This document shows positions 16,209-51,106 of a stretch of 64,000 nt of DNA, piece after piece (the first letter of the stretch is position 1; the number at the start of each line of letters is the position of its first letter). The notes beneath the pieces are model-generated. The model had not been told where the DNA came from. It was given only the letters and a program-made list of their open reading frames with translations, and searched no databases. Position numbers and translations under genes: made by a program. Origin of the DNA: Clostridiales bacterium DTU086 (lineage in GTDB: Bacteria; Bacillota; DTU086); contig LFTO01000038.1 of the NCBI GenBank assembly GCA_001513335.1, positions 20,040 to 84,039 of the forward strand, written 5' to 3'.

Positions 16209-16310
16209 CTTGCATCCTGAATAGGTACTAAAGTTTTCACAAAAAATAAGCAAAATAATCATTATTGGCCGGAAAACTTTCGTTCATTTATGCACCTCAG
16301 GAGATCATTT

Positions 16311-16931
16311 ATGAATGAAAACAGTATTACTGATTTTGTTCAAAACCTGCGAGCTATTCTAAATAATACGGAAGAAAAATCAACTGAAAATTGTTCCAAC
16401 TACCTTGATTTAGGAGAGAACAACCAGTGCAGTCTGGAACAACTAGAGCTTTCCCAACAAAGTTTACCCAAAGACAACCCCATACACCTTGCTTTTTCAC
16501 AAATTTTCCAATCGCTTCGCAATAATCATTTTGACCGGGTAAAACTGGGTCTTAATGAAATAATTCAGTATTACCTCCTGAATTCCGGAGAAAATCATTT
16601 GGGTAGATTCAGTAAGGAAATTCTTGAGCACATTTACCTGATTGTACTGTATTTCACCCACGAGGCATTTCCATTTGACCGGTACTTTTTTAATTACTTA
16701 ACAAAATGTTATCAATCGGCCTGCAGTTTTTTGTTATCAGGGCACAAGAACGCAGAAATCCAACTGTTTACGGACCATATTGTAGCTGTAGGGAAAATTG
16801 TCTCTCAAAAGCAGATGGATACATGCGGTATCCATCTGCTGTTAAGAAATATTGAGACATTTGCAATGGAAAATCATTTAATGGATCTGGCTGATAAGGC
16901 AAGAAACAGCCGCCACACACTGGAAATATAA
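16311..16931 (+). CDS. Hypothetical protein, 206 aa, predicted all-alpha cytosolic; no recognisable domain
   Basis: ATG with a CAGGAG RBS. Strongly AT-rich coding sequence (~30% GC) unlike its neighbours. It forms a pair with the next ORF (22-bp spacer). Confidence 0.55.
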   Translation: MNENSITDFVQNLRAILNNTEEKSTENCSNYLDLGENNQCSLEQLELSQQSLPKDNPIHLAFSQIFQSLRNNHFDRVKLGLNEIIQYYLLNSGENHLGRFSKEILEHIYLIVLYFTHEAFPFDRYFFNYLTKCYQSACSFLLSGHKNAEIQLFTDHIVAVGKIVSQKQMDTCGIHLLLRNIETFAMENHLMDLADKARNSRHTLEI

Positions 16932-16953: not shown

Positions 16954-18033
16954 ATGCTGCAAAAAGAACAGTACCTATTTATTATTATCAGTATCGGTAC
17001 CGGCCTACTAAGCCTTCTAGGTTCTGTAGGTATTTTTATTTCATTGATCGTTCAGCGAAAAGTTGAACGTCTCCAAGCAATTCTTGAAGAGTTGATTGAC
17101 CTGGCATACATGGAGGAACAGAATCTGACAGGCACCATTTACCGAATTGTACAAAAGTATCAAATGCACTACCTGCTGCCCAATGAACCTGTAAATACAA
17201 TAATGTACTATATAGATGCCACTATTTCTTTGGTTGTCCTTATCTGGGTTTTACTCCACCTTTTTGTAATCTCCCGGTCAATAACATTGGAAACTATCCC
17301 TCTTTTGTTGCCATTGTTAGGCGCTATTATTATCTTAATTTTTTTCAGGAAACTCCTTAAATATGCAGTTAGCCCTTTAGACAACCCCCTGTTAAGCGGC
17401 ATTATTCCGCCCCCAACAAGGTTAAGAAGCATTTCCTTTTTATCCGGATATGTAAATGTTTCAGTAAAAGCCCTACTTAAGCAGGCCCGGTTTAATTTAT
17501 TTATCGAAAAAAAAGGCGACAATTTAGCGAGCATTATCCTTAAAGAAGAGCTTTCCTTTGATGATTTCTTTTACTTCATCACCGTTGGACCACAGGAAAA
17601 CCCTTTATTTTTGGGCTTTGGAAAAATATTGTTTTCTTTTGACCCAGATACAATAACCGGAAAACCGACTCCATTACAGCATAACATCAATGTCCCTCTG
17701 GGACTTAGCAAATGGGACAAGTTTAAGGACTCAGAGATTGAAGCACACTTTCTGTTATTTCCCTACAGCGAAAAAAACCCAATAAACAGCACCTTCCTTC
17801 TCACCAGACAAAACAGCTACTATTTTTCCTTGAATAGGCCGGAAACAACAATTCTTGATGGCGTTGTTTACAAATTTGAATGCGGAAAACTTGTAATTTT
17901 GGAAAATAAGGGCTTCCCACTGATGGAATCAGTAAAGCAATTTTTTGAAAACAAAAATGAACGTTATTATTACCCTGATCCATTAACCAGAAAAGCCGTC
18001 AGAACCTGTAGTGAAGCGGCTTATATAGATTGA
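16954..18033 (+). CDS. Hypothetical membrane protein, 359 aa (about three TM helices plus a ~220-aa C-terminal soluble domain); no recognisable domain
   Basis: Hydrophobic segments at roughly aa 7-32, 83-105 and 113-132. AT-rich. Apparently co-transcribed with the preceding ORF. Confidence 0.55.
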   Translation: MLQKEQYLFIIISIGTGLLSLLGSVGIFISLIVQRKVERLQAILEELIDLAYMEEQNLTGTIYRIVQKYQMHYLLPNEPVNTIMYYIDATISLVVLIWVLLHLFVISRSITLETIPLLLPLLGAIIILIFFRKLLKYAVSPLDNPLLSGIIPPPTRLRSISFLSGYVNVSVKALLKQARFNLFIEKKGDNLASIILKEELSFDDFFYFITVGPQENPLFLGFGKILFSFDPDTITGKPTPLQHNINVPLGLSKWDKFKDSEIEAHFLLFPYSEKNPINSTFLLTRQNSYYFSLNRPETTILDGVVYKFECGKLVILENKGFPLMESVKQFFENKNERYYYPDPLTRKAVRTCSEAAYID

Positions 18034-18196: not shown

Positions 18197-18790
18197 ATGT
18201 CCACTTTTCTTCTGGTGACCGGAATCATTGTTGCGGTCTCTACACTAACATTTGTCTACTTAAGAAAACAACAACGTCAAAAGCAGAACCTTAAACCGGA
18301 GGTTTCTGAAAAGGAGGGGATTGAAAACCTTGACTTCCCAATCAGTTACGGAAAAAATCAGGTTACCCTTCTGGTGCGGGATCCCGATTGGCTTTTTGCT
18401 TATTGGGAAATTACTGCTACCGCTCAATCCGAATTCTCAAAACAATTTGGCAATGCCTGGAGCATTTCGAAACCAACGCTTAGGGTTTATGACGTTACAA
18501 ATGGAACCCCTCAAATATATTACGATATACAAATTCAAGACTACGCTGAAAGCTGGTACATTCATGTGGGAAAACCTAATCACACTTTTTTTGTTGATCT
18601 GGGCAGAATCTTACCCGATGGACGATTTTATTGTATTGCAAGGTCTAATATAGTAACCACTCCCACTAACCGCGTTTCGGATATCATTGACCCCAACTGG
18701 CTGCCGAACGAAGCTGTTTGGAATGCTTTAAGAGCCCAGGAACTGGATGTCTTAAGTTCCTGGGGATTATTTGAAAGGGAGTGTGACTGA
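18197..18790 (+). CDS. DUF4912-domain protein with an N-terminal TM anchor
   Basis: 'RDPDWLFAYWEIT' signature. This family is typically adjacent to GH57 enzymes. AAAGGAG RBS. Confidence 0.7.
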   Translation: MSTFLLVTGIIVAVSTLTFVYLRKQQRQKQNLKPEVSEKEGIENLDFPISYGKNQVTLLVRDPDWLFAYWEITATAQSEFSKQFGNAWSISKPTLRVYDVTNGTPQIYYDIQIQDYAESWYIHVGKPNHTFFVDLGRILPDGRFYCIARSNIVTTPTNRVSDIIDPNWLPNEAVWNALRAQELDVLSSWGLFERECD

Positions 18791-20386
18791 TTGGAAAAAG
18801 GATACTTGAGCCTTGTACTTCACGCCCACTTACCCTTTGTGCGGCATCCCGAAGACGAAAATTTCCTTGAAGAAAAATGGCTTTACGAAGCAATCACTGA
18901 AACGTATATTCCCTTGATTTGGGTTTTTGAGAACTTATTAAATGATGGGGTTAAGTTCCGGTTAACGATTTCCTTAAGCCCACCCCTTATAGCTATGTTA
19001 ACGGATTCCCTGCTCCAGCAGAGATATTTGAAACACCTTAACAAACTCAGGGAACTTGCCGCAAGAGAAGTATCGCGGACAAAGAAGGAACAACATGAGG
19101 TTCACCAGTGCGCCCTGATGTACCAAAACATGTTTGAAAAAGCATACAAGACTTTCCATTACGACTACCAGGACAACCTTGTCCAAGCTTTCAAAAAGTT
19201 TCAGGATCACGGAGTTCTTGAGGTAATCACCTGCGCAGGAACTCATGGTTATCTCCCCCTGTTGGGAATCCACCGGGAGACAGTACGGGCACAAATCAAC
19301 CTGGCAGTAGACTATTACCGTGAGTACTTTGGAAAAAATCCTGAAGGAATGTGGCTGCCGGAGTGCGCTTATAACCCAGGAGATGATAAATTTCTTAAGG
19401 AAGCGGGTATAAAATACTTTTTCGTTGATACTCATGGGCTGCTTTTCTCCACACCCAGACCAAAATACGGCATCTATGCACCGGTAATATGCCCTTCCGG
19501 GACTGCAGCTTTTGGGAGAGATATGGAATCCTCGAAACAGGTGTGGAGTGCCAATGAAGGATATCCCGGAGACTTTGATTACCGGGAATTCTACAGGGAC
19601 ATTGGTTATGACCTTGATTATGATTATATTAAACCCTATATTCACCCAGATGGAATACGAACGGACACAGGGTTAAAGTATTACAGGATTACCGGGAAAA
19701 ATACCGATTACAAACAGCCATACATACCCCATCATGCAAGAGAGAAGGCTGCAATCCATGCGGGCAATTTCATGTTTAACCGGGAAAGACAGATAGAGTA
19801 TCTCTCAAGACACATGGACAGGCCGCCTATTGTTGTATCTCCTTACGATGCGGAATTATTTGGCCATTGGTGGTTTGAAGGTCCCATGTGGCTGGAATTT
19901 CTGATTAGAAAAATTACTTTTGACCAAAATATCATTGAACTAAAAACACCCGGTGATTACCTGGAAGAAATCCCGAATAATCAACCAAGCCAACCGCCCA
20001 TGACAAGTTGGGGATACAAAGGGTACAACGAAGTCTGGCTGGAAGGCAGCAACGACTGGATCTACAGGCACCTGCATAACTGCGCAGAAAGAATGATTGA
20101 ATTGGCAAATAACAACAGCGGTGGCGAACCGGAACTAATCAGACGCGCACTCAACCAAGCAGCAAGGGAAATCTTTCTTGCCCAAGCAAGTGACTGGGCT
20201 TTTATTATGAAAACGGGAACTATGGTAGACTACGCAAGGAAGCGGACAACAGACCACGTTTCCCGGTTCACCAAGTTATATAAGGAAATAAAAGAAAGAA
20301 CCGTTGATGAATCCTGGCTTAAAAAGTTGGAGGATACAGATAATATATTTCCAAAAATAAATTACGAAATCTACAAAACGGTTTGA
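18791..20386 (+). CDS. Glycoside hydrolase family 57 enzyme, likely 1,4-alpha-glucan branching enzyme
   Basis: 'LSLVLHAHLPFVRHPE', 'WLPECAY', 'ELFGHWWFEG' are GH57 catalytic-region motifs. 531 aa is typical of GH57 branching enzymes. TTG start overlapping the DUF4912 stop. Confidence 0.8.
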   Translation: MEKGYLSLVLHAHLPFVRHPEDENFLEEKWLYEAITETYIPLIWVFENLLNDGVKFRLTISLSPPLIAMLTDSLLQQRYLKHLNKLRELAAREVSRTKKEQHEVHQCALMYQNMFEKAYKTFHYDYQDNLVQAFKKFQDHGVLEVITCAGTHGYLPLLGIHRETVRAQINLAVDYYREYFGKNPEGMWLPECAYNPGDDKFLKEAGIKYFFVDTHGLLFSTPRPKYGIYAPVICPSGTAAFGRDMESSKQVWSANEGYPGDFDYREFYRDIGYDLDYDYIKPYIHPDGIRTDTGLKYYRITGKNTDYKQPYIPHHAREKAAIHAGNFMFNRERQIEYLSRHMDRPPIVVSPYDAELFGHWWFEGPMWLEFLIRKITFDQNIIELKTPGDYLEEIPNNQPSQPPMTSWGYKGYNEVWLEGSNDWIYRHLHNCAERMIELANNNSGGEPELIRRALNQAAREIFLAQASDWAFIMKTGTMVDYARKRTTDHVSRFTKLYKEIKERTVDESWLKKLEDTDNIFPKINYEIYKTV

Positions 20387-20445
20387 TTATTTCGGTCTCT
20401 GAGGGCTTTTCTGAAGGAACCGATACATGATTAGGTGTATTCGAA

Positions 20446-20482
20446 CCCTCCAGTTAATCTTTGCAGCCAATCAACTGGAGGG
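20446..20482. terminator. 10-bp perfect inverted repeat between convergent genes (putative terminator)
   Basis: CCCTCCAGTT…AACTGGAGGG. No strong U-tract on either side. Confidence 0.4.
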
Positions 20483-20507
20483 CAAATTGTTCTATGATTG
20501 GGAAGCG

Positions 20508-22985
20508 TTATTGTTTTTTATTTTGGGAAGCATTATTGTTTTTTACGATACAGTTGATTTTTTCCAGGTACATATCCGTTAAAGATTCAGCTATTTCCTG
20601 TGAATAACCCTCGCCATATATATTGTAAAGAGGTTCCTCCGCATCCGGCAGAACTAATGCTGACCCCTGGTCATGATACACTTTAATCCCATCCAGCAAC
20701 TCTACTTGATTATCCTGCCCTTCATCAATCAAAGTCCGCATTACCGTACCTTTTGTTGTCCACGGGCACTGGATCTCTTTTACACTGACATGAAACTTAG
20801 GAATTTTATCTATTAACTTTGATAGACAGACTGAATACCTTAACAGGCAGTCAATCAACTTTACAATGGTATATACTCTGTCAAATTCCAAAAAGAATTG
20901 CAGGCAGCTGGGGTTGTTTAACTTATTGTCCTCCTTCACCTTTGCTTCCAGTACAGACCTGGCTGCAGTTTTTGTTCGAATCACCTCACCCCCGAAAGTA
21001 TGAGCAATATCTTCCACTGCTTTTGGAACCGTGACTGGCGCCACATAACGCCCTGTTTTATTGTGCATAAAGTAAACCAGGGACAATAATACCGTTAAAA
21101 ATTCATTTTGTATCACTGTGCCCTTTACATCAACAACGGCTAGTTTTTCTCCGTGTCTGTCCAAGACGGCACCAAAAAGAGCATTGGTCTTGGCCACAGT
21201 TTCGGATACGGAACAAAAAATATTGTCAAGGTTTTCAGTACTTTCCTGGTACAATTCCTCCTTTACCTCGTGTACGGTAACTCCTAACTTTTCAAACAGT
21301 AGGTTTAAGGCAGCCTCAGCGGGATTACCACGGGTACAAAGAACAATTTCAGGGTTGTACTTCCAAAAATCTTCAACAATTCCCTGCTCCAAAAAACTTA
21401 AGTAAGCAGATACGAAGTCAGGAGTACTGAGGACATAATTGATATCCTGCCCGGAAGCTCTCCTAAAATCTTCCCGGTGGAAAAAGTTTTCTATTTTGCG
21501 TTCGGTATCTCGGCCAATATCTATACCCTTTTCATCAAAAAACTGTATCTTTAAGCGTTGGCCGTCCTCTGAAATAGTTTTAAAATACACTCCGCCGTCC
21601 GCTCCTAAAAAACCAACCCCAAACCGGTGTAGCGGAGTTGTTAAAGGCCCGGCCTCGTATACATTGACTCCCGTGGAAAGTAGGCCTGATACAAAAGCAT
21701 CTTTAATCATTTCCGCTCCAGGTTGTCCATCGGAACTAACCAAAACCCGTTGTGAGGGCGATAATGTTCCACCATAGGATCCTCCGAGCCTGGCAGCGCA
21801 CTCAGGTGTAAAATCCACATTTATCTTTCCAGGCACTCCTTCCTTCCCAAAAAGGATTTTTCCGCATTTACTGTTCCAAATAATGCTTGAATTTACCTGA
21901 GTATCTCTCTCCACAACTTTGTGAGGCCATATTTTGATTTCAGGCTTCACTACGGAGAAACTCCCCAATTTGCAGTAATCCCCTACTACCGCCCCTTCAA
22001 ATAGGGAAACATTGCTGCCCGTAGTCACATGCTGACACAATACAGCTCCCCTTAAAGCAGATTGTTTCCCCAGGAGACAACCTTCCCAGACAATGCTGCG
22101 TTTAATTGAGACTCCCTGTTCCACAATTGTATTTTGACCAATAACAGTGTATGGTTCAATTTTTACTCCGGGACCAATTCTGCAGCTATTGCCAATTACT
22201 GCAGGGCCAACAACTTCAGCGTCAGGATCAATGAATACGTCAGTCCCAACCCATACTCCTGGGGCAATCTCATTACCTGCGATTTCCTGATTGACTTTCC
22301 CTGACAGCATATCTATATGAGCCTGCCTGTACTGTTCAATATTGCCAATGTCACACCAATAACCTTCAGCAAGGCACCCATATAGAGGTTTTTGTTCTTC
22401 GAACAGTTTAGGAAAAAGGTTTTTGCTAAAATCGTACATGCCCTCGGAGGGGATTTCCTGAAGGACCTCCGGCTGCATAATATATATTCCGGTATTCACC
22501 TGATCGCTGAAGACTTCACCCCACCCGGGTTTTTCTAAAAACCTCCTTATACGACCGTCACTTTTTGTTATCACAACCCCATATTCCAGCGGAGCGTCTA
22601 CCCGGGTAAGTACCAAAGTTGCCAGAGATTCAGAGTCAAAATGAAAATCTACCGCTTTTGATAAATCAAAATCGGTAAGAGCATCACCGCTTATTACTAT
22701 GAATGTATCGTCCAGAAATTCTTCAGCATTTTTTACACTGCCTGCAGTTCCCAATGGAACCTCTTCTACAAAATAATGCAGGTTTACCCCCCACTGGCTG
22801 CCGCTGCCAAAGTAATCCTTAATATGACCGGGAAGATATTGAAGAGTAACGGCAATATCGGTTATGCCGTGATTTTTTAAGAGTTCAATTGCATACTCCA
22901 TTACCGGTTTGTTAATAAGAGGCGTCATAGGCTTTGGACGGCCACAGGTTAACGGCCTTAGTCTCGAACCTGAACCACCAGCCAT
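20508..22985 (-). CDS. Bifunctional NDP-hexose pyrophosphorylase (nucleotidyltransferase + LbH) / phosphohexomutase (PMM/PGM) fusion protein
   Basis: N-terminal '[19 protein letters not shown]' NTP-transferase, a central hexapeptide beta-helix, and a C-terminal alpha-D-phosphohexomutase with 'GGSYGG…'. ATG at 22985 with a GAAGGGAG RBS. Confidence 0.8.
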
Positions 22986-23001
22986 AATTACTCCCTTCAA
23001 G

Positions 23002-24366
23002 TCAATTTCCTCCTTCCCTATGGTTGTTAGTTAAAATTCGGCTACCCACCAAATCGTATTCACCTAATCTTGAATCCACTTCCCCTATTTTTGTTTCTGC
23101 CATTCTCTCAGGGGCTTCATATCTTGAGGTAACAAAAGACATAGCATAATCCCACACCCTCGGTTTCTTTCTTTCACGGGACCAAGGGCTTTTTTTGTAT
23201 TCTCGAAGAACCCTTTCATATAGTGCAATTGTATTGTTAGCTATTGCCCGCCAGTCATAAACCTTTGTAACAAGCTTCTTTGCTTTATCTTTTATTTGTG
23301 CAGCATATACCTCATCTGTCAGCAGACGGATAATATTATTAGCTAAAGAGTTGGCATTGCCGGGATACGCTTTCATTCCGTTTTCCCCATGAGTTACTAT
23401 TTCAGACAACCCACCGGTGTCAGATACTACTACCGGTGTCCCTGCAGCCATTCCTTCCAGTGCCACAATACCAAAAGGTTCATAGAGGCTGGGAAACACA
23501 GCTACCGAAGATACTGCATAGAGTTTGTTTCGAGTTTCATCGTCAATATAACCAGTAAACAATATCTTATCTCCCAATCCCGTCGTTTGGGCTCTATGCT
23601 TCAGTTCCCCTTCCATGGGGCCTTTTCCCGCAATAACAAATTTAGCATCAGGGAATGCTCTGATAATTGCAGGAGCACTTTCAATTAAAACCTGAACCCC
23701 TTTTTCCTGTACTAAGCGTCCTACAAATAGCACTATCTTTTCGTAGTCAAAAGCAAATCTATTTTTAAATCCTGGCTCTATTTGGAGGTTTTCAAAAACC
23801 CTGGCATTTACACCATTGGGAACGATGTCTATTTTATCCCCGGGCGCATTAAAAAGACCTATAATTTCCGATTTCATATGTTTGCTGCAGACGATTATCC
23901 GCCATGCTTCGTAAGCCAACCACCATTCTACGCTGCCAATATATCTCTGGTGCTCATTGTGCAGCCCATTATTTCGCCCGGCTTCCGTTGCGTGTATTGT
24001 TGCAATCAGGGGAATATGGTAACCATGTTTGATCGCTGCCCCAGCAAAAGCTGTAAGCCAATCATGAGCATGTACAATATCAAAAGTTCCCTGGGTACGG
24101 AACAATCCTGCCACAACTTCCTGCATTTTTACGTTAAGCTGCAAAACCCAGGTCACAAAATCCGGTGTATTAACTGGATAAGGCTCAAACCTATGTAGAT
24201 GAACCCCTCCGACTATCTCATATTCAGGAGTATCCTCCGAACCAACGGTTACCACATGAATCTCGTTGTTTGTCTCTGCTAGAGCTGAGGAAAGATCTTC
24301 AACATGCCGGGCAAGTCCCCCCACACTTCTTGGTGGATACTCCCAAGTCAGCACAAGAACTTTCAC
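23002..24366 (-). CDS. GT4-family glycosyltransferase (alpha-glucan/glycogen-synthase-like)
   Basis: '[17 protein letters not shown]', 'HAHDW', '[10 protein letters not shown]' and the 'E…FG…EGMAAG' GT-B motifs. GTG start with a GAAAGGGG RBS. Confidence 0.75.
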
Positions 24367-24521
24367 TATTAAACTGCCCCTTTCTATTTATTTTTTTCTG
24401 CCAATTATCTCCTTAATCTATTGTTTCAAAATTGACTTTTTTTATCCCACGGAACCCCAAGAATAAATCTGTTGGAAAAAGAACATCCTAAAAAAGACTT
24501 TTAACGATGGAGGTTGCCAAG

Positions 24522-25517
24522 ATGCCTGAATTAAGACAAGATCCTCTTACCGATACATGGGTAATTATTGCCAGTGAGAGAAGCAAAAGACCCTCCGATT
24601 TTGCATCCAAAAAGGAAGGGAAAAAGGATTCGGGCAGCTGCCCATTCTGCCTGGGAAACGAACACATGACCCCACCGGAAATCCTTGCTTATAGAGAAAG
24701 GGGACAATCAAATACGGACGGTTGGTCTCTTCGCGTAATTCCTAATAAGTTCCCAGTTCTTCAAAATGAAGGACAGGCTGACAAAGATACAATAGGATTA
24801 TATGAAAAGATGCACGGCGTAGGTGCCCATGAAGTTATTGTTGAAACACCTGACCACAATAGGCCTTTGGGCGAAGAATCAGAAGAACATATTTTTGGAA
24901 TTCTGAAGGCCTGGCAATCTCGCTATCTTGACTTAAAAAAAGACCCGAGAATTCAATACACACAGCTTTTTAAAAATCATGGGGCTGTAGCTGGGGCTTC
25001 TTTGTCTCACCCACACAGCCAGCTTATTGCCACACCTTTAGTTCCCAAAAATGTGATCGAAGAATTAGAAGGCATAGAGCGTTTCTATAAAAAGGAAGGC
25101 AAATGTTATTTTTGTGAAAGTGTAGAGTTTGAAAAGAAAGACCGTGCCAGAATTGTTGCCGAAAACAATGCCTTTATTGCTTTTTGCCCCTATGCGGCCC
25201 GCTTCCCCTTTGAAACCTGGATTGTACCTCACAAACATAGTGAGTATTTTGAAGAATCTTCAGATGAAGAGTTAAGGTCTCTGGCTTCAATTCTTAAGCG
25301 CACAATCTCCAGCTTATCTCAAGCCCTGGAAGACCCGCCTTATAATCTAGTTGTTCACAGTGCCCCTTATCGCATGAATGAAGGCCAGCGTTACCACTGG
25401 CATATAGAAATTCTGCCGAGACTAACTATTGTTGCAGGATTTGAGTGGGGAACCGGTTTCTACATCAACCCTACTCCACCAGAATCAGCTGCAGGATATT
25501 TGCGCCAAACTCATTAA
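24522..25517 (+). CDS. GalT-family (HIT superfamily) nucleotidyltransferase: hexose-1-phosphate uridylyltransferase / ADP-glucose phosphorylase-like
   Basis: Zn site 'CPFCLGNEH' and the HxHxQ motif 'SHPHSQLIA'. GGAGG RBS before ATG 24522; an in-frame ATG at 24507 is also possible. Confidence 0.75.
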   Translation: MPELRQDPLTDTWVIIASERSKRPSDFASKKEGKKDSGSCPFCLGNEHMTPPEILAYRERGQSNTDGWSLRVIPNKFPVLQNEGQADKDTIGLYEKMHGVGAHEVIVETPDHNRPLGEESEEHIFGILKAWQSRYLDLKKDPRIQYTQLFKNHGAVAGASLSHPHSQLIATPLVPKNVIEELEGIERFYKKEGKCYFCESVEFEKKDRARIVAENNAFIAFCPYAARFPFETWIVPHKHSEYFEESSDEELRSLASILKRTISSLSQALEDPPYNLVVHSAPYRMNEGQRYHWHIEILPRLTIVAGFEWGTGFYINPTPPESAAGYLRQTH

Positions 25518-25541
25518 GAGACGGAAAGAAGGAGGTTAATC

Positions 25542-27026
25542 ATGCAGGAAAGGCTCAAGATATTACTGGTATCCTCGGAAGTAGATCCATTTGCAAAAAC
25601 CGGCGGTTTAGCCGATGTGGCTGGGTCCCTGCCTAAAGCCCTTGCCAGGCTGGGACACGATATCCGAATTATTATGCCCCGCTACAAACAAATAAAAAAC
25701 ACAGAATACCTGAATGATATGCCTGTGGAAATGGACGGCCACCTAGAAACAGCAATTGTAAGGCAAGCAATGCTCCCCGTTAAAGGAGGAGAGGCAGATT
25801 TAAGAATTCCCGTATACTTTATTGACAACTACAAGTTTTTCTACAGAGAGGGTCTATATGGGCATATTGATGACGGCGCACGTTTCAACTTCTTTACAAA
25901 GGCTGTTCTTTCTGCTCTGCCAAAACTGGATTTCAAGCCAGACGTTATTCACTGTAATGACTGGCAAACTGCAATGCTCCCACTATTCTTAAAAGTAAAA
26001 TATGAGGACGAGCCCTTCTATAAAAATACTGCCACCGTATTTACCATTCACAATTTGCAGTACCAGGGACGATTCCCAAAAGATGTTCTGATTACATTAA
26101 ACCTGCCCGAAAAAAAATTCTTTACTCCGGACCAGTTGGAGTACTGGGGACAGGTAAACTATATGAAGGCAGGGATTCTTTATTCCGATTTAATAAACAC
26201 AGTGAGCGATAAATATTCCCTGGAAATCCAAACCTCCGAATTTGGTGAAGGATTAGACGGCCTGCTGCGCAAACGGGCCCAAGACCTTTATGGGATACTG
26301 AACGGAATTGACTATAATAATTTTAATCCCGAAACAGATGAGAGGATTTATAAAAACTTTAGTCTTGCCACTATTGAAGACAAAAGGGAAAACAAATACG
26401 CTCTCCAGGAAGAACTTGGACTTCCTAAAAAAGATGTCCCTATGATCAGCCTGATTTCGCGCCTTGCTTCCCAAAAAGGTCTTGACCTTTTAGCCAATGT
26501 GATCAACGACCTTTTGGAAACAAATGTACAATTTGTACTCCTCGGAAGCGGTGAAGACAGGTACCAGCATTTCTTCAGCGAGTTAAAGATTCGCTACCGG
26601 GATAAAGCTGCCATCCACATTGGTTTTGATGCAGACCTTGCCCAGAGAATCTATGCTGCTTCGGACATATTTCTAATGCCCTCCAGGTTCGAGCCATGTG
26701 GCCTGGGACAGATGATAAGCATGAGATACGGGACTATACCGGTAGTACATGCTACCGGCGGATTGGAAGATACGGTTATCGACTATCACCAGGATAATGA
26801 ACGGGGAAATGGTTTTTCATTCACCCATTATTCAGCCGTTGAACTTTGGAAAACTATCCAGCGAGCTGTAGGACTATACACCGACTATCCGGATCAATGG
26901 CGGCAGCTTGTAACCAATGCCATGAGGTCTGACTTCTCCTGGAAAAATTCTGCTGAAAAATACGTCTCTTACTACCTTAGAGCCATAACGAAAAGGCGGG
27001 AAAACGCTCTGGAAAGAACCGGTTAA
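25542..27026 (+). CDS. glgA: Glycogen synthase (GT5, ADP-glucose-type)
   Basis: 'KILLVSSEVDPFAKTGGLADVAGSLPKAL' and the GT5 C-terminal motifs. GAAGGAGG RBS. Confidence 0.9.
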   Translation: MQERLKILLVSSEVDPFAKTGGLADVAGSLPKALARLGHDIRIIMPRYKQIKNTEYLNDMPVEMDGHLETAIVRQAMLPVKGGEADLRIPVYFIDNYKFFYREGLYGHIDDGARFNFFTKAVLSALPKLDFKPDVIHCNDWQTAMLPLFLKVKYEDEPFYKNTATVFTIHNLQYQGRFPKDVLITLNLPEKKFFTPDQLEYWGQVNYMKAGILYSDLINTVSDKYSLEIQTSEFGEGLDGLLRKRAQDLYGILNGIDYNNFNPETDERIYKNFSLATIEDKRENKYALQEELGLPKKDVPMISLISRLASQKGLDLLANVINDLLETNVQFVLLGSGEDRYQHFFSELKIRYRDKAAIHIGFDADLAQRIYAASDIFLMPSRFEPCGLGQMISMRYGTIPVVHATGGLEDTVIDYHQDNERGNGFSFTHYSAVELWKTIQRAVGLYTDYPDQWRQLVTNAMRSDFSWKNSAEKYVSYYLRAITKRRENALERTG

Positions 27027-27034
27027 AAAGAGGT

Positions 27035-27060
27035 ACTCCCCGGGTTAGTTCCCGGGGAGT
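27035..27060. terminator. Bidirectional terminator
   Basis: Perfect 10-bp stem ACTCCCCGGG-ttagtt-CCCGGGGAGT with a U-tract on the minus strand. Confidence 0.75.
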
Positions 27061-27064
27061 ATAT

Positions 27065-27445
27065 TTATACCCTTGTACCATCGTGGATCTCAAAACTCCA
27101 ATTGATCCCGTTATTGTTATCCCAGTTATTGGCACTATCCTTAAAGCAGATGTTTAACCTTGAAGAATCATTTACAGTAAATTTCTTTACCCAACCCCTT
27201 TCGGTCTTATCCATCTTAATACTCTGTACATTATTCCAGGCGTTGGACGAACCATATCCGCAGTGCAGATAAACCTGGTCTGCGCCGGAACTGGAAAGCA
27301 AACCGTTATAAAGAATGGTGATTTCCTCTCCTGCGGTAATTGGCACAGGGTCAACCACTACCCCTCCTGGATACATAGCATCTCTCATGTTTGCCAGTCT
27401 TTCTTCGCGCCCCCCAAACCGGGAATGTTTTGTGTGATGTGACAA
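27065..27445 (-). CDS. Standalone CBM25-like starch/glycogen-binding module protein (126 aa)
   Basis: 'YLHCGYGSSNAWNNV…GWVKKF…NICFKDSANNWDNNNGINWSFEI' resembles the CBM25/26 starch-binding fold. TTG start with a GGAGGGAG RBS. Confidence 0.5.
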   Translation of the reverse strand: MSHHTKHSRFGGREERLANMRDAMYPGGVVVDPVPITAGEEITILYNGLLSSSGADQVYLHCGYGSSNAWNNVQSIKMDKTERGWVKKFTVNDSSRLNICFKDSANNWDNNNGINWSFEIHDGTRV

Positions 27446-35556: not shown

Positions 35557-35850
35557 ATGGAAAAGAGAAACCGTTACACAGCAGAATTTAAAGCAAAAAT
35601 AGTTCTTGAGCTTTTGCAGGAGGAAGCTACCTTAAGTCAGGTTGCCTCCAAGTATCAGTTAAATCCTCAAATGCTCAGCCAGTGGAAGAGCGATTTTGTT
35701 AAAAATGCTTTCGTCGTCTTTGAGAGAAATAAAAATGAGGCCGGTAAACTCCGGAAGGAGATGGCAGAAAAAGAATCCCGGTATCAGCAGATCATTGGCC
35801 AGCAATCTTATGAGATTGAATGGCTCAAAAAAAAATCTGGCCTCAAATAA
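35557..35850 (+). CDS. IS3-family transposase OrfA (HTH)
   Basis: 'RYTAEFKAKIVLELL…LSQVASKYQLNPQMLSQWK' is an IS3/IS911 HTH. It ends just after the slippery AAAAAAAAA. Confidence 0.8.
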   Translation: MEKRNRYTAEFKAKIVLELLQEEATLSQVASKYQLNPQMLSQWKSDFVKNAFVVFERNKNEAGKLRKEMAEKESRYQQIIGQQSYEIEWLKKKSGLK

Positions 35851-36706
35851 GACTCTTGAAGCTCGTAGAGCAATGGCAGAGCGTCAAAACAAACGTATTA
35901 GTTCAACACGCCAGGCAGAACTGTTAAGCATAAACCGGACTAGTATCTACAGGGAACCGGTTACTAAAACATGGTCTGAGCTTGACCTTAAGGATATGCG
36001 GCTTATTGATGAGATATATACAGCGAACCCAACATACGGGTATCGCAGGATTACAGCAGCAATGAACCTGCGGGGCAGGCATATCAACCGGAAACGTGTC
36101 CGGAGGTTAATGAGAATTATGGGTCTTCATGGGATATGCCCCGGACCAAACTTGAGCAAGCGGCTGCATCCCAAGTATATACATCCTTACCTCTTAAGGG
36201 GACTAAAGATCACCCATCCTGATCAGGTGTGGGCAGTGGACATTACATATATCCGCATGCAGCAAGGCTTCATGTACTTATTTATTATCATTGATCTCTA
36301 CAGCCGTTACATTGTGGATTACCAGCTCAGCACCACCTTGGACAGGCACTTTGTGCTGGACTGCTTAAAACGGGCATTTACGAAAGGCAAGCCGGAAATC
36401 ATCAACAGCGATCAAGGTGGCCAATTTACAAATAAAGATTACGTTAAACTGCTTCAAAGTGAAAAGATCAGAATATCTATGGATGGAAAGGGACGTGCCC
36501 TGGACAACATTATTGCAGAGAGATTTTTCAGAACCCTAAAGTACGAAGACATTTATCTGAACGAGTATATCACCCCCAAGGCCTTGCGGAAAGGACTGAA
36601 AAGATTCATCAACTACTACAACCATGAACGCCTTCATCAATCTCTAGGTTACACTCCGCCGGCTGATCATTACCAAGCCGTGCTGGTGGACAAAAAAGCA
36701 TGTTAA
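35826..36706 (+). CDS. IS3-family transposase OrfB (DDE integrase core), expressed as an OrfAB fusion by -1 frameshift at ~35826-35834
   Basis: DDE triad context 'WAVDITYI', 'INSDQGGQFT', 'DNIIAERFFRTLKYE'. rve domain. Confidence 0.75.
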
Positions 36707-48874: not shown

Positions 48875-51040
48875 TTACATATTGGTAGCTATCCTGGCAA
48901 GGTTATTCTCACCTTCACCCAGGATTGCATCCAAAGCTTCGTTAAAATGACGCATTTCAATCTTGAGTGCTGCTTTTTGTTCTTCGGAAGCCTTGGATAC
49001 GTCTTTAACCTCAGCAATAAACTCTCTTAAGGCGATTAAGGATGCTTGTTGACATATACCTTCTATGTGGGAACCCGCAAATCCTTCTGTTTTTTCAACA
49101 ATTTGGTCAAAATCCACATCCGCGCCAAGGGGCTTGCCCTTAGTATGGATTTGAAGAATTTCACGTCTCATAACGGCATCCGGCATGGGGAATTCAAGAA
49201 TATAGTCGAACCGTCCAGGACGGAGAAGCGCTTTATCAAGGCTTTCGAGCCTGTTGGTAGCAGCAAGAACAATAACTCCCTTTAGTTCTTCAAGGCCGTC
49301 AAGCTCACTCAAAAGGATACTTACCATCCTTTCAGATGTCTTAGTGTGGCCTCCGCTTCCGCGCTCAGGGGCCAAGGCGTCAATCTCATCAAAGAACAGG
49401 ATGCAGGGCGACGCCTGTCTAGCCTTCTGGAAAACTTCAATCAACATCTTTTCTGACTGGCCGGTCCAATGTGAGAAAAGCATTGGGCTGGGTACCGAAA
49501 TAAAGTTTATTTCTGTCTCTGTTGCAATTGCCTTGGCCATCAATGTCTTACCAGTACCCGACGGACCTGAAAGGAGAATACCCTTGGGGGTTTCCATTTT
49601 GATTTGCTTGAACAGATCACCATATCTAAGAGGCCAATCAACCAGAGCAATAAGTGTTTGTTTGATTTCCTCCAATCCACCTACATCATTCCAACTTACG
49701 TTAGGCACTTCAGAGAAGAACTCACGGGTAGCAGATGGACGAACCTGCTTTAGTGCTTCCTGGAAGTCAGCCATGGACACAACCATTTTAACATCCTGGT
49801 TGCTGACCTTTTCTCCCAAATCAATCTGAGGGAGCAAACGTCTCAAGGCACTCATGCCGGCCTCTTTACAGAGGAAAGCAAGGTCCGCACCGACAAATCC
49901 ATGAGTAACTGCGGCAAGTTGCCTTATATCTACATCATCTGCTAAAGTCATGCCACGGGTATGAATTTGAAGAATATCTTCGCGGCCGTACCTGTCAGGC
50001 GCATTAATCACAATTTCCCTGTCAAAACGGCCTGGCCTTCTCAAAGCGGGATCAAGGAGGTCGGGCATGTTTGTAGCACCGATTACTACAATGTCACCCC
50101 TGGCGTCCATGCCGTCGAGGAGGGCAAGGAGCTGGGCAACAACCCTTTTTTCTACATCACCATGGACATCTCCACGCTTCGGAGCCAGGGCATCTATTTC
50201 GTCCAGGAACAAAATACTGGGAGCACGCCGTCTTGCTTCAGCAAACACTTCCCGGAGCTTGGCTTCGCTTTCGCCGTAATATTTGTTCATAACTTCCGGA
50301 CCGTTTACATGGATAAAGTGAACATCTGTTTCTGAGGCAACAGCCTTTGCAATCAAAGTTTTTCCTGTGCCAGGAGGGCCATAGAGAAGAACCCCTTTGG
50401 GAGACTCGATACCTAAGGTTCTGAATACCTCGGGGAACTTCATGGGAAGCTCAATTATTTCACGGACTCTCTGGACCTCTTGTTCCAGACCCCCGATATC
50501 TTCATAAGAAACCCTCTTCCTAGTCATGTAGTCTTCAGGTTCCTTGATTTTCAGCTTTGTATCCTTTGTTATTACCGCAGGGCCCTTGGGATTCAATCCG
50601 GCAACAGTGAAGCTCTCATCTGTTCCCACAAGCATAACAACGATTCTATCCCCGGCAACAATAGGGATACCAACCATCATTCTAAGAAGGTTATATAATA
50701 AGTTTTCGTCCTCATATTTTTTTGTGGCATCTTCAGGGGTAAGAATAACAATATTGGCTGGTTCTACTTTTGCCTTTCGAATTTGGACCTTCTCGTCCAA
50801 ACTCACGCCGGCATTATATCTAATAGTAGAGGTCATCATTACAGATTCATTACGGCAGTAGGCGCCAAAAGAAGGTACAACCTTAGCGACGGTTTTTCTT
50901 TTTCCAAGGATTTCAACGTATTCATTAAGCTGAACACCAATATCTTTCATATCCTCGGGGTCCATACGAATAAGTCCCCTGTTGGTGTCCTCCAACATTC
51001 CTTCGATAACCCTTAACCTAACGCTTTCACGTTTAGCCAC
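48875..51040 (-). CDS. CDC48/VCP-like double-AAA+ ATPase (CDC48 N-domain + D1 + D2)
   Basis: N-terminal double-psi-barrel region 'RLRVIEGMLEDTNRGLIRMDP…'. Two Walker A motifs 'GPPGTGKT' and 'GPSGTGKT'. Second-region-of-homology arginine motifs. GTG start at 51040 with a GGAGGGG RBS. Confidence 0.85.
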   Translation of the reverse strand: MAKRESVRLRVIEGMLEDTNRGLIRMDPEDMKDIGVQLNEYVEILGKRKTVAKVVPSFGAYCRNESVMMTSTIRYNAGVSLDEKVQIRKAKVEPANIVILTPEDATKKYEDENLLYNLLRMMVGIPIVAGDRIVVMLVGTDESFTVAGLNPKGPAVITKDTKLKIKEPEDYMTRKRVSYEDIGGLEQEVQRVREIIELPMKFPEVFRTLGIESPKGVLLYGPPGTGKTLIAKAVASETDVHFIHVNGPEVMNKYYGESEAKLREVFAEARRRAPSILFLDEIDALAPKRGDVHGDVEKRVVAQLLALLDGMDARGDIVVIGATNMPDLLDPALRRPGRFDREIVINAPDRYGREDILQIHTRGMTLADDVDIRQLAAVTHGFVGADLAFLCKEAGMSALRRLLPQIDLGEKVSNQDVKMVVSMADFQEALKQVRPSATREFFSEVPNVSWNDVGGLEEIKQTLIALVDWPLRYGDLFKQIKMETPKGILLSGPSGTGKTLMAKAIATETEINFISVPSPMLFSHWTGQSEKMLIEVFQKARQASPCILFFDEIDALAPERGSGGHTKTSERMVSILLSELDGLEELKGVIVLAATNRLESLDKALLRPGRFDYILEFPMPDAVMRREILQIHTKGKPLGADVDFDQIVEKTEGFAGSHIEGICQQASLIALREFIAEVKDVSKASEEQKAALKIEMRHFNEALDAILGEGENNLARIATNM

Positions 51041-51074
51041 CGAATTACACCCCTCCCCTAGTAGCCGCTCAGGC

Positions 51075-51106
51075 ACACATTAAATATATACGCTTGCTTG
51101 TCGAAA
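51075..51106 (-). promoter_or_regulatory. Putative sigma-A promoter of the CDC48-like gene
   Basis: On the minus strand: TTGATT, 17 nt, TATATT. Confidence 0.4.

What the first reader, a model, noticed from the sequence alone, without database searches (positions are those of the whole stretch)
18197..27445. Non-canonical alpha-glucan (glycogen) cluster lacking glgC
Three transcription units sit together. DUF4912-GH57 (probable branching enzyme) is on the plus strand. A GT4 transferase and a fused NDP-hexose pyrophosphorylase/phosphohexomutase are on the minus strand. A GalT-like (HIT) nucleotidyltransferase and GT5 GlgA are on the plus strand. A standalone CBM25-like glucan-binding protein flanks the cluster. 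No GlgC (ADP-glucose pyrophosphorylase) and no GH13 GlgB are present. The fusion enzyme could turn G6P into NDP-glucose in one polypeptide. The GalT-like enzyme could interconvert NDP-glucose species (ADP-glucose phosphorylase or uridylyltransferase chemistry) to feed GlgA. The role of the GT4 enzyme (a second synthase, or a maltose-1-P/glucosyl-osmolyte type transferase) is unclear.
Basis: partly seen in the sequence, partly recalled or inferred. Interest (0 to 1): 0.55.

Follow-up and report, generated by a model that had tools for sequence, protein, structure and literature searches.

The report
Non-canonical glycogen synthesis gene cluster
This is a real, conserved glycogen-type (alpha-glucan) synthesis gene cluster of an uncultured Bacillota bacterium, built from unusual parts; its supposed two-step "fusion enzyme" carries a mutase half that lacks all its catalytic motifs, so it probably does only one step.

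Summary
No glgC, GH13 glgB, glgP or functional pgm lies in the 64-kb window; the rest of the genome could not be checked.

Three revisions:
1. The PGM/PMM-like half of the 830-aa fusion has lost all four phosphohexomutase signature motifs. The same is true in 85 homologues from five named phyla. "G6P to NDP-glucose in one polypeptide" is therefore not supported. The N-terminal pyrophosphorylase half is intact and is closest to a solved UTP-glucose-1-P uridylyltransferase.
2. The closest characterised relative of the GT4 is M. tuberculosis Rv3032, an alpha-1,4-glucosyltransferase that also sits beside a GH57 gene. It is not GlgM.
3. The GalT-like protein matches Arabidopsis ADP-glucose phosphorylase far better than it matches true GalTs.

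Synteny shows an ancestral Bacillota module: CBM53, GT4 followed by the fusion, and DUF4912-GH57 nearby. In this lineage a galT-like/glgA pair was inserted into that module.

Verdict: an uncharacterised variant of glycogen synthesis, moderately interesting. Nucleotide specificity and the true absence of glgC remain untested.

The parts
18197..18790 (+). DUF4912 protein (197 aa): N-terminal hydrophobic helix followed by an FN3/Ig-like beta-sandwich. Likely accessory partner of the GH57 enzyme.
   Evidence: PF16258 at 124 bits. AlphaFold2 model with mean pLDDT 81.6: helix at residues 2-29 and seven strands at residues 55-149. Best Foldseek PDB matches are FN3 domains, E about 1e-4. Found next to GH57 in 12 of 47 Bacillota loci. 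Its stop codon abuts the GH57 start.
18791..20386 (+). GH57 glycogen branching enzyme of the AmyC / TTHA1902 type (531 aa).
   Evidence: Glyco_hydro_57 plus BE_C. PDB 2b5d at 550 bits and E 7e-164; also matches 3n8t, 5wu7 and 3p0b. The catalytic-region motifs WLPECAY and PYDAELFGHWW align with the template.
20508..21860 (-). C-terminal phosphohexomutase-like domain of the fusion (residues 381-830). It is catalytically degenerate (a pseudo-mutase) and is proposed to be a regulatory or scaffold domain.
   Evidence: It aligns end to end with archaeal PGM/PMM structures 9du5 and 1wqa (E 7e-40). However, TASHNP becomes KTISED (residues 474-479), DGDADR becomes DRHGEK (614-619), GEENGG is absent, and RASGTEP becomes LPDAEEP (784-790). 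The same loss is seen in all 85 homologues. Mean identity across homologues is 33%, against 62% for the N-domain.
21861..23000 (-). N-terminal NDP-sugar pyrophosphorylase (NTP_transferase plus left-handed beta-helix, residues 1-380) of the fusion. Proposed supplier of NDP-glucose.
   Evidence: PF00483 at 190 bits. Best PDB match is 8x7s, 'UTP--glucose-1-phosphate uridylyltransferase', at 232 bits; GMPPB scores 166 bits. GlgC models score 117-123 bits against cut-offs of 425-470. Of 123 positions conserved in at least 90% of homologues, 77 lie in this domain, including the G-rich loop G8-G9-x-G11-x-R13..K23, E156-K157-P158 and D217.
23002..24366 (-). GT4 retaining glycosyltransferase (454 aa), Rv3032-like. 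Proposed alpha-1,4-glucan synthase. Lies upstream of the fusion gene and is probably translationally coupled to it.
   Evidence: Rv3032 (P0241): 35% identity over 399 aa, 208 bits, E 4e-67. PDB: SPS 6kih 118 bits, P. abyssi GlgA 107 bits, GlgM 6tvp 96 bits. TIGR02149 scores 168 bits against a cut-off of 302. PF08323 starch-synthase domain hit at 76 bits. EX7E motif at E296/E304. GT4 lies directly upstream of the fusion in 23 of 42 Bacillota loci.
24367..24506 (.). 140-bp AT-rich divergent intergenic region between the GT4 gene and the galT-like gene. Presumed promoter region for both units.
   Evidence: Sequence read. No Rfam family matches it. The promoter scan found nothing in this region and overall no more sites than in shuffled sequence.
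24507..25517 (+). Class I GalT-family HIT nucleotidyltransferase (336 aa) of the ADP-glucose phosphorylase subfamily.
   Evidence: 1z84/2h39 (At5g18200) at 262 bits and E 6e-77. P. aerophilum GalT 145 bits; E. coli GalT 111 bits. CPFC motif (C45, C48) and H168-P-H170-S-Q172 are conserved. The identity of 1z84 as ADP-glucose phosphorylase comes from bioRxiv 10.64898/2026.09.13.751320.
25542..27026 (+). GT5 glycogen synthase GlgA (494 aa), ADP-glucose type.
   Evidence: NF001898 at 623.5 bits (cut-off 603) and TIGR02095 at 581 bits. Matches PDB starch and glycogen synthases at 284-314 bits.
27034..27061 (.). GC-rich hairpin (11 base pairs) between the convergent glgA and CBM53 genes. Looks like a terminator.
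27065..27445 (-). Stand-alone CBM53/CBM25 starch-binding-module protein (126 aa). No signal peptide is evident, so it is presumably cytoplasmic and binds glucan.
   Evidence: PF16760 at 42.6 bits and PF03423 at 35 bits. Sequence read. Lies directly upstream of GT4 in D. reducens and other Bacillota.

Best explanation
The locus encodes intracellular alpha-glucan (glycogen-type) synthesis and has two arms.

Arm 1 is ancestral in Peptococcaceae / Moorellales-type Bacillota. The N-terminal pyrophosphorylase of the 830-aa protein makes an NDP-glucose from glucose-1-phosphate. UDP-glucose is the most likely product, but ADP-glucose is not excluded. The co-transcribed Rv3032-like GT4 uses that donor to extend alpha-1,4 chains. 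The AmyC-type GH57 enzyme, together with its DUF4912 partner, introduces alpha-1,6 branches. The small CBM53 protein binds the polymer.

The mutase-like C-terminal half of the 830-aa protein is not a mutase. I infer that it is a ligand-sensing or oligomerisation domain that regulates the pyrophosphorylase. That would be the functional counterpart of allosteric control in GlgC.

Arm 2 is an insertion specific to this lineage. It consists of a canonical ADP-glucose-type GlgA preceded by an ADP-glucose phosphorylase-family enzyme. That enzyme interconverts ADP-glucose plus phosphate with ADP plus glucose-1-phosphate, and so sets the ADP-glucose level seen by GlgA.

Shown: gene content, motif loss, homology ranking and synteny. 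Inferred: the substrates, the product, the regulatory role of the pseudo-mutase, and the direction of the GalT-like reaction.
For: - Domain calls and GlgA membership.
- GH57 matches T. maritima AmyC (2b5d) at 550 bits, with the catalytic-region motifs aligned.
- GT4 is closest to Rv3032: 208 bits and 35% identity over its full length. The identity of that sequence was confirmed by exact look-up. Its M. tuberculosis context is methyltransferase, GH57, GT4. GlgM scores 96 bits and SPS 118 bits.
- The fusion N-domain scores a mean of 231 bits against the solved UGPase 8x7s and 162 bits against GMPPB, across 86 family members.
- All four phosphohexomutase motifs are lost in the window protein and in 85 homologues. 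The N-domain is far more conserved than the C-domain.
- In a census of fusion loci from 80 species, the only recurrent neighbour families that are not housekeeping genes are GT4 (25 loci), GH57 (17), DUF4912 (8) and CBM53 (4).
- GT4 sits directly upstream of the fusion in 23 of 42 Bacillota loci. A GH57 branching-enzyme-like gene lies near the fusion in 4 of 6 Armatimonadota loci.
- In D. reducens the order is CBM53, GT4, fusion on one strand. In the window and in L007 the galT-like/glgA pair lies between CBM53 and GT4 on the opposite strand.
- The GalT-like protein matches ADP-glucose phosphorylase at E 6e-77 and keeps the nucleophile His and the CPFC motif.
- The same galT-like then glgA pair occurs in an unrelated context in L089.
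Against: - No enzyme here has been assayed.
- 35% identity to Rv3032 does not prove orthology. In mycobacteria Rv3032 serves methylglucose lipopolysaccharide, not bulk glycogen.
- Orthologues of the fusion also occur alone in cyanobacteria, Chloroflexota and many Bacillota. Cyanobacteria (from my own knowledge) already have GlgC and a CugP-type UGPase. The family may therefore make another sugar nucleotide, or serve several pathways.
- The solved UGPase is only 40% identical to the window's N-domain (38% on average across the family), so nucleotide and sugar specificity are open.
- A canonical glgC, pgm, glgP or GH13 glgB may lie elsewhere in the genome.
- The published equilibrium of ADP-glucose phosphorylase favours ADP-glucose breakdown (Keq 5-40; McCoy et al. 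2006, recalled from memory). This argues against a supplying role for the GalT-like enzyme.
- In 4 of 5 genomes from other phyla that I examined, the GalT-like gene is not next to glycogen genes.
Confidence: 0.6

Rival explanations
1. Bulk glycogen is made classically by GlgA using ADP-glucose from a GlgC encoded elsewhere in the genome. The GT4, fusion and GH57 genes make a different, smaller alpha-glucan product. Examples would be an Rv3032/Rv3031-like oligoglucan comparable to the glucan backbone of mycobacterial methylglucose lipopolysaccharide, or a primer.
For: The closest characterised relative of the GT4 is Rv3032, and in M. tuberculosis that gene sits beside a GH57 gene. GlgA here is a fully canonical ADP-glucose-type enzyme. 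The window covers only 64 kb of the genome. The GalT-like/GlgA pair is a separate, later insertion.
Against: No methyltransferase, acyltransferase or glucosylglycerate gene lies near the cluster in the window or in the Bacillota relatives. The GH57 is an AmyC-type enzyme and is only 28% identical to the mycobacterial Rv3031-type protein. A starch-binding CBM53 protein precedes the GT4 in several relatives, which points to a polymer rather than an oligosaccharide. In the 47 Bacillota loci no GT5 GlgA lies within 10 kb of the GT4-fusion pair.
Confidence: 0.2
2. The GT4-fusion operon is unrelated to alpha-glucan. The pyrophosphorylase makes GDP-mannose or another nucleotide sugar, and the GT4 builds a compatible solute or a cell-envelope glycoconjugate. 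Its position beside glycogen genes is coincidental.
For: NCBIfam's best hit for the fusion is a mycobacterial mannose-1-P guanylyltransferase model, at 240 bits against a cut-off of 440. GMPPB-type enzymes are the next-best PDB hits. The best PDB hit of the GT4 by phmmer is a sucrose-phosphate synthase. The fusion occurs without glycogen-gene neighbours in many phyla.
Against: Across loci from 80 species, the only enriched neighbours of the fusion are GT4, GH57 branching-enzyme genes, DUF4912 and CBM53. No mannosyl- or glucosyl-glycerate genes, phosphatase genes or envelope genes recur. The solved UGPase outscores GMPPB for every family member. Rv3032 outscores SPS by 90 bits and aligns over the full length.
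Confidence: 0.1
3. The GalT-like gene is an ordinary Leloir-pathway galactose-1-phosphate uridylyltransferase, as database annotation says, and it merely happens to lie next to glgA.
For: It passes the TIGR00209 galT_1 cut-off (149.6 bits against 102.1). Its homologues are named GalT by their sources. The HxHxQ motif and the CPFC motif are shared by all class I GalTs.
Against: It scores 262 bits against ADP-glucose phosphorylase At5g18200, but 145 and 111 bits against the two true GalTs with solved structures. At5g18200 (from memory of McCoy et al. 2006) has no GalT activity. It fails the stricter GalT equivalog NF008724 (166 bits against 448). The window has no galK, galE or galM. The pairing with glgA recurs in L007, L008 and L089.
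Confidence: 0.1

Closest known systems
Mycobacterium tuberculosis Rv3030-Rv3031-Rv3032 cluster (GH57 branching-enzyme-like protein plus GT4 alpha-1,4-glucosyltransferase; methylglucose lipopolysaccharide pathway)
   Same: A GT4 of the same subfamily: 35% identity over the full length, shared N-terminal WEYPP..GG(L)xRHV and HATEAGR motifs, and both carry a PF08323 hit. Both are genetically linked to a GH57+BE_C gene.
   Different: There is no adjacent methyltransferase. The GH57 is AmyC-type, only 28% identical to the mycobacterial one. The GT4 is coupled to its own nucleotide-sugar pyrophosphorylase and to a CBM53 protein. The likely product is glycogen-like polymer rather than a methylated, acylated oligoglucan.
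Classical bacterial GlgC-GlgA-GlgB glycogen pathway
   Same: A canonical GT5 GlgA is present. The overall logic is the same: sugar-1-phosphate activation by an NTP_transferase+LbH enzyme, chain elongation, then branching.
   Different: No GlgC-family member and no GH13 GlgB lie in the window. Activation is by a CugP/GMPP-like enzyme fused to a dead mutase domain. Branching is by GH57. There is a second, GT4 synthase.
Arabidopsis At5g18200 ADP-glucose phosphorylase (PDB 1z84 / 2h39)
   Same: Best characterised homologue of the GalT-like protein (E 6e-77, aligned over residues 5-334). The nucleophile His and the CPFC motif are conserved.
   Different: The window protein is bacterial and forms a two-gene unit with glgA. 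Its activity is untested, and the physiological role of the plant enzyme is itself unknown.
PDB 8x7s UTP-glucose-1-phosphate uridylyltransferase (I recognise the sequence as the cyanobacterial CugP type; that attribution is from memory)
   Same: Same NTP_transferase+LbH architecture and the best-scoring solved relative (232 bits, 40% identity).
   Different: The window protein carries an extra 450-residue degenerate phosphohexomutase domain. Specificity is unknown. Cyanobacteria hold both types, so the two are not simple orthologues.
Thermotoga maritima AmyC (PDB 2b5d) and Thermus thermophilus TTHA1902 (PDB 3p0b) GH57 branching enzymes
   Same: 550 and 247 bits respectively, with the same length and domain order.
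   Different: Here the gene is translationally coupled to a DUF4912 gene. No role for that partner has been described (one search found no relevant literature).

Membership tests
GlgC (glucose-1-phosphate adenylyltransferase) | Score above the curated cut-off of the GlgC equivalog models (TIGR02091, NF003670) | tested here: not met
   The fusion N-domain scores 117.5 bits against a cut-off of 424.9, and 122.7 against 470. No other candidate exists in the window. The rest of the genome was not searched.
GlgA, GT5 ADP-glucose-type glycogen synthase | Score above the NCBIfam GlgA cut-offs, with a full-length Glyco_transf_5 catalytic domain | tested here: met
   NF001898 at 623.5 bits against 603. 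TIGR02095 at 581 bits against 328. PF08323 covers positions 1-239 of 239.
GH57 glycogen branching enzyme | GH57 catalytic domain plus BE_C C-terminal domain | tested here: met
   PF03065 at 140 bits and PF09210 at 136 bits.
GH57 glycogen branching enzyme | Conserved catalytic-region motifs carrying the nucleophile Glu and the acid/base Asp | tested here: met
   WLPECAY and PYDAELFGHWW align with WLAECGY and PFDAELFGHWW of AmyC 2b5d. The assignment of the catalytic residues comes from my knowledge of GH57.
GH57 glycogen branching enzyme | Branching (alpha-1,4 to alpha-1,6 transfer) activity rather than amylase activity | not testable with these tools
   The narrow NCBIfam equivalogs for the Thermococcales and Thermus enzymes fall below their cut-offs (349 against 1000; 324 against 920).
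Rv3032-type GT4 alpha-1,4-glucosyltransferase | Full-length similarity exceeding that to other characterised GT4/GT5 enzymes | tested here: met
   208 bits and 35% identity over 399 aa, against 118 (SPS), 107 (P. abyssi GlgA) and 96 (GlgM) bits. Orthology is not proven.
Rv3032-type GT4 alpha-1,4-glucosyltransferase | Genetic linkage to a GH57 branching-enzyme-like gene | tested here: met
   M. tuberculosis: GH57 lies directly upstream. Window: GH57 lies 2.6 kb away. Bacillota relatives: GH57 lies within 10 kb in 13 of 47 loci.
Rv3032-type GT4 alpha-1,4-glucosyltransferase | Association with methylglucose lipopolysaccharide genes (an Rv3030-type methyltransferase) | tested here: not met
   No methyltransferase lies at or near the cluster.
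GlgM (maltose-1-phosphate synthase) / GlgE pathway | TIGR02149 score above cut-off and presence of GlgE | tested here: not met
   167.6 bits against a cut-off of 302.4. 6tvp scores only 96 bits. No GH13 or GlgE gene lies in the window.
alpha-D-phosphohexomutase (PGM/PMM/GlmM) | Phosphoserine loop T/S-A-S-H-N-P | tested here: not met
   Replaced by KTISED (residues 474-479). None of 85 homologues has the motif.
alpha-D-phosphohexomutase (PGM/PMM/GlmM) | Metal-binding loop D-x-D-x-D-R | tested here: not met
   Replaced by DRHGEK (residues 614-619). The sequence varies among homologues.
alpha-D-phosphohexomutase (PGM/PMM/GlmM) | Sugar-binding loop G-E-x-x-G and phosphate-binding loop R-x-S-G-T-E-P | tested here: not met
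   The sugar loop is deleted or unrelated. The phosphate loop is LPDAEEP, with L/M/I-P-D-x-x-x-P conserved family-wide.
alpha-D-phosphohexomutase (PGM/PMM/GlmM) | Four-domain fold alignable end to end | tested here: met
   Residues 383-810 align with residues 4-445 of 9du5 at E 7e-40. The fold is retained and the chemistry is lost.
Nucleotide-sugar pyrophosphorylase (NTP_transferase + LbH; CugP/GMPPB-like) | G-rich loop GGxGxRLxPLT...PKP, EKP motif and the metal-binding Asp | tested here: met
   G8-G9-S-G11-S-R13-L-R-P-L-T18..P22-K23-P24, E156-K157-P158 and D217 are all at least 90% conserved in the family.
Nucleotide-sugar pyrophosphorylase (NTP_transferase + LbH; CugP/GMPPB-like) | Nucleotide and sugar specificity | not testable with these tools
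   The UGPase 8x7s scores 232 bits and GMPPB 166 bits. This is suggestive only.
Class I GalT family, ADP-glucose phosphorylase subfamily | HxHxQ motif with the nucleophilic second His, plus the CxxC motif (a zinc site in class I GalTs) | tested here: met
   H168-P-H170-S-Q172 and C45-P-F-C48 align with the At5g18200 motifs.
Class I GalT family, ADP-glucose phosphorylase subfamily | Closer to At5g18200 than to Leloir GalTs | tested here: met
   262 bits against 145 (P. aerophilum) and 111 (E. coli).
Class I GalT family, ADP-glucose phosphorylase subfamily | Phosphate-dependent ADP-glucose cleavage and no GalT activity | not testable with these tools
   Needs an enzyme assay.
CBM53/CBM25 starch-binding module | Pfam score above the gathering threshold | tested here: met
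   PF16760 at 42.6 bits against 27.6, and PF03423 at 35 bits against 27.3.

The most novel reading that the evidence does not exclude
Many Bacillota make glycogen without GlgC. A CugP-like pyrophosphorylase that keeps a dead phosphohexomutase domain as a built-in sugar-phosphate sensor would supply NDP-glucose directly to an Rv3032-type GT4 glucan synthase, with DUF4912-GH57 doing the branching. In this lineage, ADP-glucose for the additional GlgA would be formed phosphorolytically from ADP plus glucose-1-phosphate by the GalT-like enzyme. That would be an ATP-saving route suited to energy-limited anaerobes.
Probability: 0.15. Interest if true: 0.7.

Novelty: new variant of a known kind. Interest (0 to 1): 0.45.

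Why it matters
Surveys of bacterial glycogen metabolism count GlgC/GlgA/GlgB and the GlgE route, and they treat GT4 "glycogen synthases" and GH57 enzymes as open questions. The 2024 Chemical Reviews survey (PMC11046441) marks GT4 roles in Archaea with question marks.

This locus and its relatives define a conserved, testable module: CBM53, an Rv3032-like GT4, a pyrophosphorylase with a pseudo-mutase domain, and DUF4912-GH57. The module is common in Peptococcaceae / Moorellales-type Bacillota (23 of 42 loci). If it is a self-sufficient glycogen route, genome-based calls of "no glycogen pathway" or "incomplete pathway" in these anaerobes would be wrong.

The pseudo-mutase finding also corrects a tempting annotation ("bifunctional pyrophosphorylase/phosphomutase") for a protein family found here in six named phyla, including cyanobacteria.

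The recurring galT-like/glgA pair gives a bacterial setting in which to ask what ADP-glucose phosphorylase is for.

Tried and rejected
1. Mannosylglycerate or other compatible-solute pathway for GT4 plus the fusion. Rejected as the main reading because the neighbour census found only alpha-glucan genes enriched.

2. GlgM/GlgE route. Rejected: TIGR02149 falls below its cut-off, the GlgM structure is a weak match, and there is no GlgE gene.

3. The fusion as a true bifunctional mutase/pyrophosphorylase. Rejected on motif loss.

4. Literature on this module. Searches for GH57/GT4 clusters, DUF4912, ADP-glucose phosphorylase/GalT/glycogen, PDB code 8X7S, sll1496, and GH57 with nucleotidyl transferase found no description of it.

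6. The promoter and terminator scans were no better than shuffled sequence, apart from the 27034-27061 hairpin. No Rfam element lies in 16-29 kb.

7. Whether glgC exists elsewhere in this genome or in complete relatives (D. reducens, T. toyohensis, Ca. Formimonas warabiya) could not be tested.

8. The attribution of 8x7s to the cyanobacterial CugP type rests on my memory of the sequence and of Maeda et al. 2014. It was not verified.

Full report
**Observation**

Pfam and NCBIfam confirm every domain call:
- DUF4912 (18197-18790, +)
- GH57 + BE_C (18791-20386, +)
- an 830-aa NTP_transferase + LbH + PGM/PMM-like protein (20508-23000, -)
- a GT4 (23002-24366, -)
- a class I GalT-like HIT protein (24507-25517, +)
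- a GT5 GlgA above NCBIfam's equivalog cut-off (25542-27026, +)
- a 126-aa CBM53/CBM25 protein (27065-27445, -)

Gene starts are backed by end-to-end alignments with characterised relatives. The gene pairs are tightly packed. An 11-bp GC-rich hairpin separates the convergent glgA and CBM53 genes.

The remaining large ORFs of the window are housekeeping genes plus one IS transposase. None is glgC, GH13 glgB, glgP, glgE or a phosphoglucomutase.

The organism is an uncultured Bacillota bacterium. Database proteins named 'MAG: Bacillota bacterium' are 98% identical. The next relatives are Moorella, Thermanaeromonas and the Desulfotomaculum group.

**The cluster is conserved, but it is composite**

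An independent metagenome contig (L007) carries all seven genes in the same order and orientation, at 51-76% protein identity.

In Desulforamulus reducens MI-1 the order is CBM53, GT4, fusion on one strand, with DUF4912-GH57 about 5 kb downstream of the fusion gene. In Thermanaeromonas toyohensis GT4 then fusion and DUF4912-GH57 are likewise linked. Neither genome has a GalT-like or GT5 gene nearby.

I scanned one genome per species with an alignment of fusion proteins. This gave more than 595 matches, of which 80 loci were kept. Results:
- Of the 47 Bacillota loci, 42 have enough upstream sequence to judge. In 23 of those 42 a GT4 of at least 40% identity lies directly upstream of the fusion gene, in the same direction.
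- Thirteen of the 47 have a GH57 within the flank, 12 have a DUF4912, and 6 have a CBM53.
- One has a GalT-like gene, and none has a GT5 GlgA.

An unbiased clustering of all ORFs within 6 kb of the fusion gene found only GT4 (25 loci), GH57 (17), DUF4912 (8) and CBM53 (4) as recurrent families that are not housekeeping genes. The GH57 count includes branching-enzyme-like genes next to the fusion in 4 of 6 Armatimonadota loci.

The ancestral unit is therefore CBM53 / GT4-fusion / DUF4912-GH57. The galT-like/glgA pair has been inserted between CBM53 and GT4, on the opposite strand, in the window's lineage.

**The fusion protein**

The N-terminal 235 residues are a well-conserved nucleotide-sugar pyrophosphorylase.
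- Mean identity is 62% across 83 full-length homologues.
- Of 123 positions conserved in at least 90% of homologues, 77 lie here. They include the G-rich loop, the EKP motif and D217.
- The best solved relative is PDB 8x7s, deposited as UTP--glucose-1-phosphate uridylyltransferase (232 bits). Next come GMPPB-type GDP-mannose pyrophosphorylases (about 160 bits).
- This ranking holds for all 86 family members.
- GlgC models are far below their cut-offs.

The C-terminal 450 residues align end to end with archaeal PGM/PMM structures (E 7e-40), but every signature loop of the alpha-D-phosphohexomutases is gone:
- TASHNP (phosphoserine loop) is KTISED.
- DGDADR (metal loop) is DRHGEK.
- The GEENGG sugar loop is missing.
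- RASGTEP (phosphate loop) is LPDAEEP.

The same is true of all 85 homologues examined, from Bacillota, Cyanobacteriota, Chloroflexota, Armatimonadota, Eremiobacterota and Actinomycetota. This domain is only 33% conserved, and its invariant positions are mostly Gly, Pro and Trp.

It is therefore an ancient, retained pseudo-enzyme domain. I infer a regulatory or scaffolding role. That inference is untested.

**The GT4**

The best PDB matches are weak: sucrose-phosphate synthase 118 bits, P. abyssi GlgA 107 bits, GlgM 96 bits. The GlgM-type model TIGR02149 is below its cut-off.

I recalled the M. tuberculosis Rv3032 sequence from memory and checked it two ways.
- An exact look-up found it as the 414-aa 'glycogen synthase [Mycobacterium tuberculosis]'.
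- Its genomic context is methyltransferase, GH57+BE_C, GT4, which matches the published Rv3030-Rv3032 cluster (PMC2674218 and PMC6629080 for the cluster).

The window GT4 aligns with Rv3032 over 399 residues at 35% identity and 208 bits. The two share N-terminal motifs and the EX7E motif. Both proteins also hit the starch-synthase catalytic domain model PF08323.

Rv3032 is thus the closest characterised enzyme. However:
- 35% identity does not prove orthology.
- No methyltransferase accompanies the gene here.
- The GH57 is of the T. maritima AmyC type (550 bits to 2b5d) and is only 28% identical to the mycobacterial GH57.

Together with the cytoplasmic CBM53 protein, which has no signal peptide, this points to a glycogen-like polymer rather than a methylglucose lipopolysaccharide.

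**The GalT-like protein**

It matches Arabidopsis At5g18200 (1z84/2h39), the ADP-glucose phosphorylase, at E 6e-77 over residues 5-334. P. aerophilum GalT scores 145 bits and E. coli GalT 111 bits. The CPFC motif and the H-P-H-S-Q motif are conserved. The identity of these PDB entries was confirmed.

It passes the broad galT_1 model and fails the strict GalT equivalog. The window has no Leloir-pathway genes.

The galT-like then glgA pair recurs in L007, L008 and, in an unrelated context, in L089. In four other genomes from other phyla the gene stands alone.

From memory of McCoy et al. 2006, the equilibrium favours ADP + G1P (Keq 5-40). Coupling this enzyme to GlgA would amount to a reversed phosphorylase reaction. 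I therefore consider a buffering or draining role at least as likely as a supplying role.

**DUF4912**

An AlphaFold2 model (mean pLDDT 81.6) shows an N-terminal hydrophobic helix and a seven-stranded beta-sandwich. Foldseek matches only FN3/Ig-like domains. Its constant position directly upstream of GH57 suggests an accessory subunit. Nothing more specific can be said.

**Verdict**

This is a genuine alpha-glucan synthesis locus of non-canonical composition.

The most useful corrections are:
- the dead mutase domain;
- the Rv3032-type affinity of the GT4;
- the composite origin of the cluster.

What remains unknown is decisive for novelty: whether glgC exists elsewhere in the genome, which nucleotide sugar the fusion makes, and which direction the GalT-like enzyme runs.

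I found no description of this module in the searchable literature. I rate it a new variant of a known kind, of moderate interest.

Noticed in passing
window 18197-18790: The DUF4912 protein is predicted to have an N-terminal hydrophobic (membrane-anchor-like) helix at residues 2-29, followed by an FN3/Ig-like beta-sandwich. Homologues have variable N-termini, and one carries a Rho_N domain. A membrane tether for a glycogen branching enzyme would be unexpected.
   Followed up: partly
L009-L088 (fusion homologues); window 20508-21860: The roughly 830-aa 'pyrophosphorylase-phosphomutase' family is widespread: more than 595 genome hits, in Bacillota, Cyanobacteriota, Chloroflexota, Armatimonadota, Eremiobacterota and Actinomycetota. 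All 85 members examined lack the mutase catalytic motifs. A conserved replacement motif, L-P-D-x-x-x-P, sits where the phosphate-binding loop should be.
   Followed up: yes
L058 8150-9895, and L060, L067, L068: In Armatimonadota a GH57+BE_C gene (31% identical to the window's) lies within the 10-kb flank of the fusion gene (directly upstream in L058) with no GT4 present. This is a second, independent link between this pyrophosphorylase family and GH57 branching enzymes.
   Followed up: partly
L089 6001-8513: A galT-like gene followed 9 bp later by a GT5 glgA (40% identical to the window's) sits among GT2, GT4 and polysaccharide-deacetylase genes in an unrelated MAG. The two-gene unit may move as a cassette.
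   Followed up: partly
L026 about 19783-21700: In 'Clostridia bacterium DTU022' a GalT-like gene (42% identity) lies divergently next to DUF4912-GH57. This is another association of this HIT enzyme with glycogen genes.
   Followed up: no
window 27034-27061: An 11-bp, GC-rich hairpin lies between the convergent glgA and CBM53 genes. It looks like a bidirectional terminator.
   Followed up: no
window 16290-16931 and 16954-18033: Two plus-strand ORFs (213 and 359 aa) immediately upstream of the cluster have no significant Pfam or NCBIfam match. They are not found next to the cluster in L007.
   Followed up: partly
window 35696-36706: An IS-type transposase ORF (rve integrase core plus HTH_21).
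   Followed up: no
window 48875-51076: A CDC48/p97-like double-AAA ATPase with a CDC48_N domain, in a bacterial genome.
   Followed up: no
(protein collection): The 90% cluster that holds Rv3032 mixes 414-aa GT4 proteins with 526-aa GH57 proteins. This is probably a clustering artefact caused by read-through gene calls across the adjacent Rv3031 and Rv3032 genes.
   Followed up: no
L091 7223-9266: A contig whose GT4 protein is named by NCBI as from a Solirubrobacterales (Actinomycetota) MAG has the Bacillota-type context gatCAB, HMGL, two CBM53 genes, GT4, and no fusion gene after the GT4. It is either mis-binned or a variant of the module without the pyrophosphorylase.
   Followed up: no
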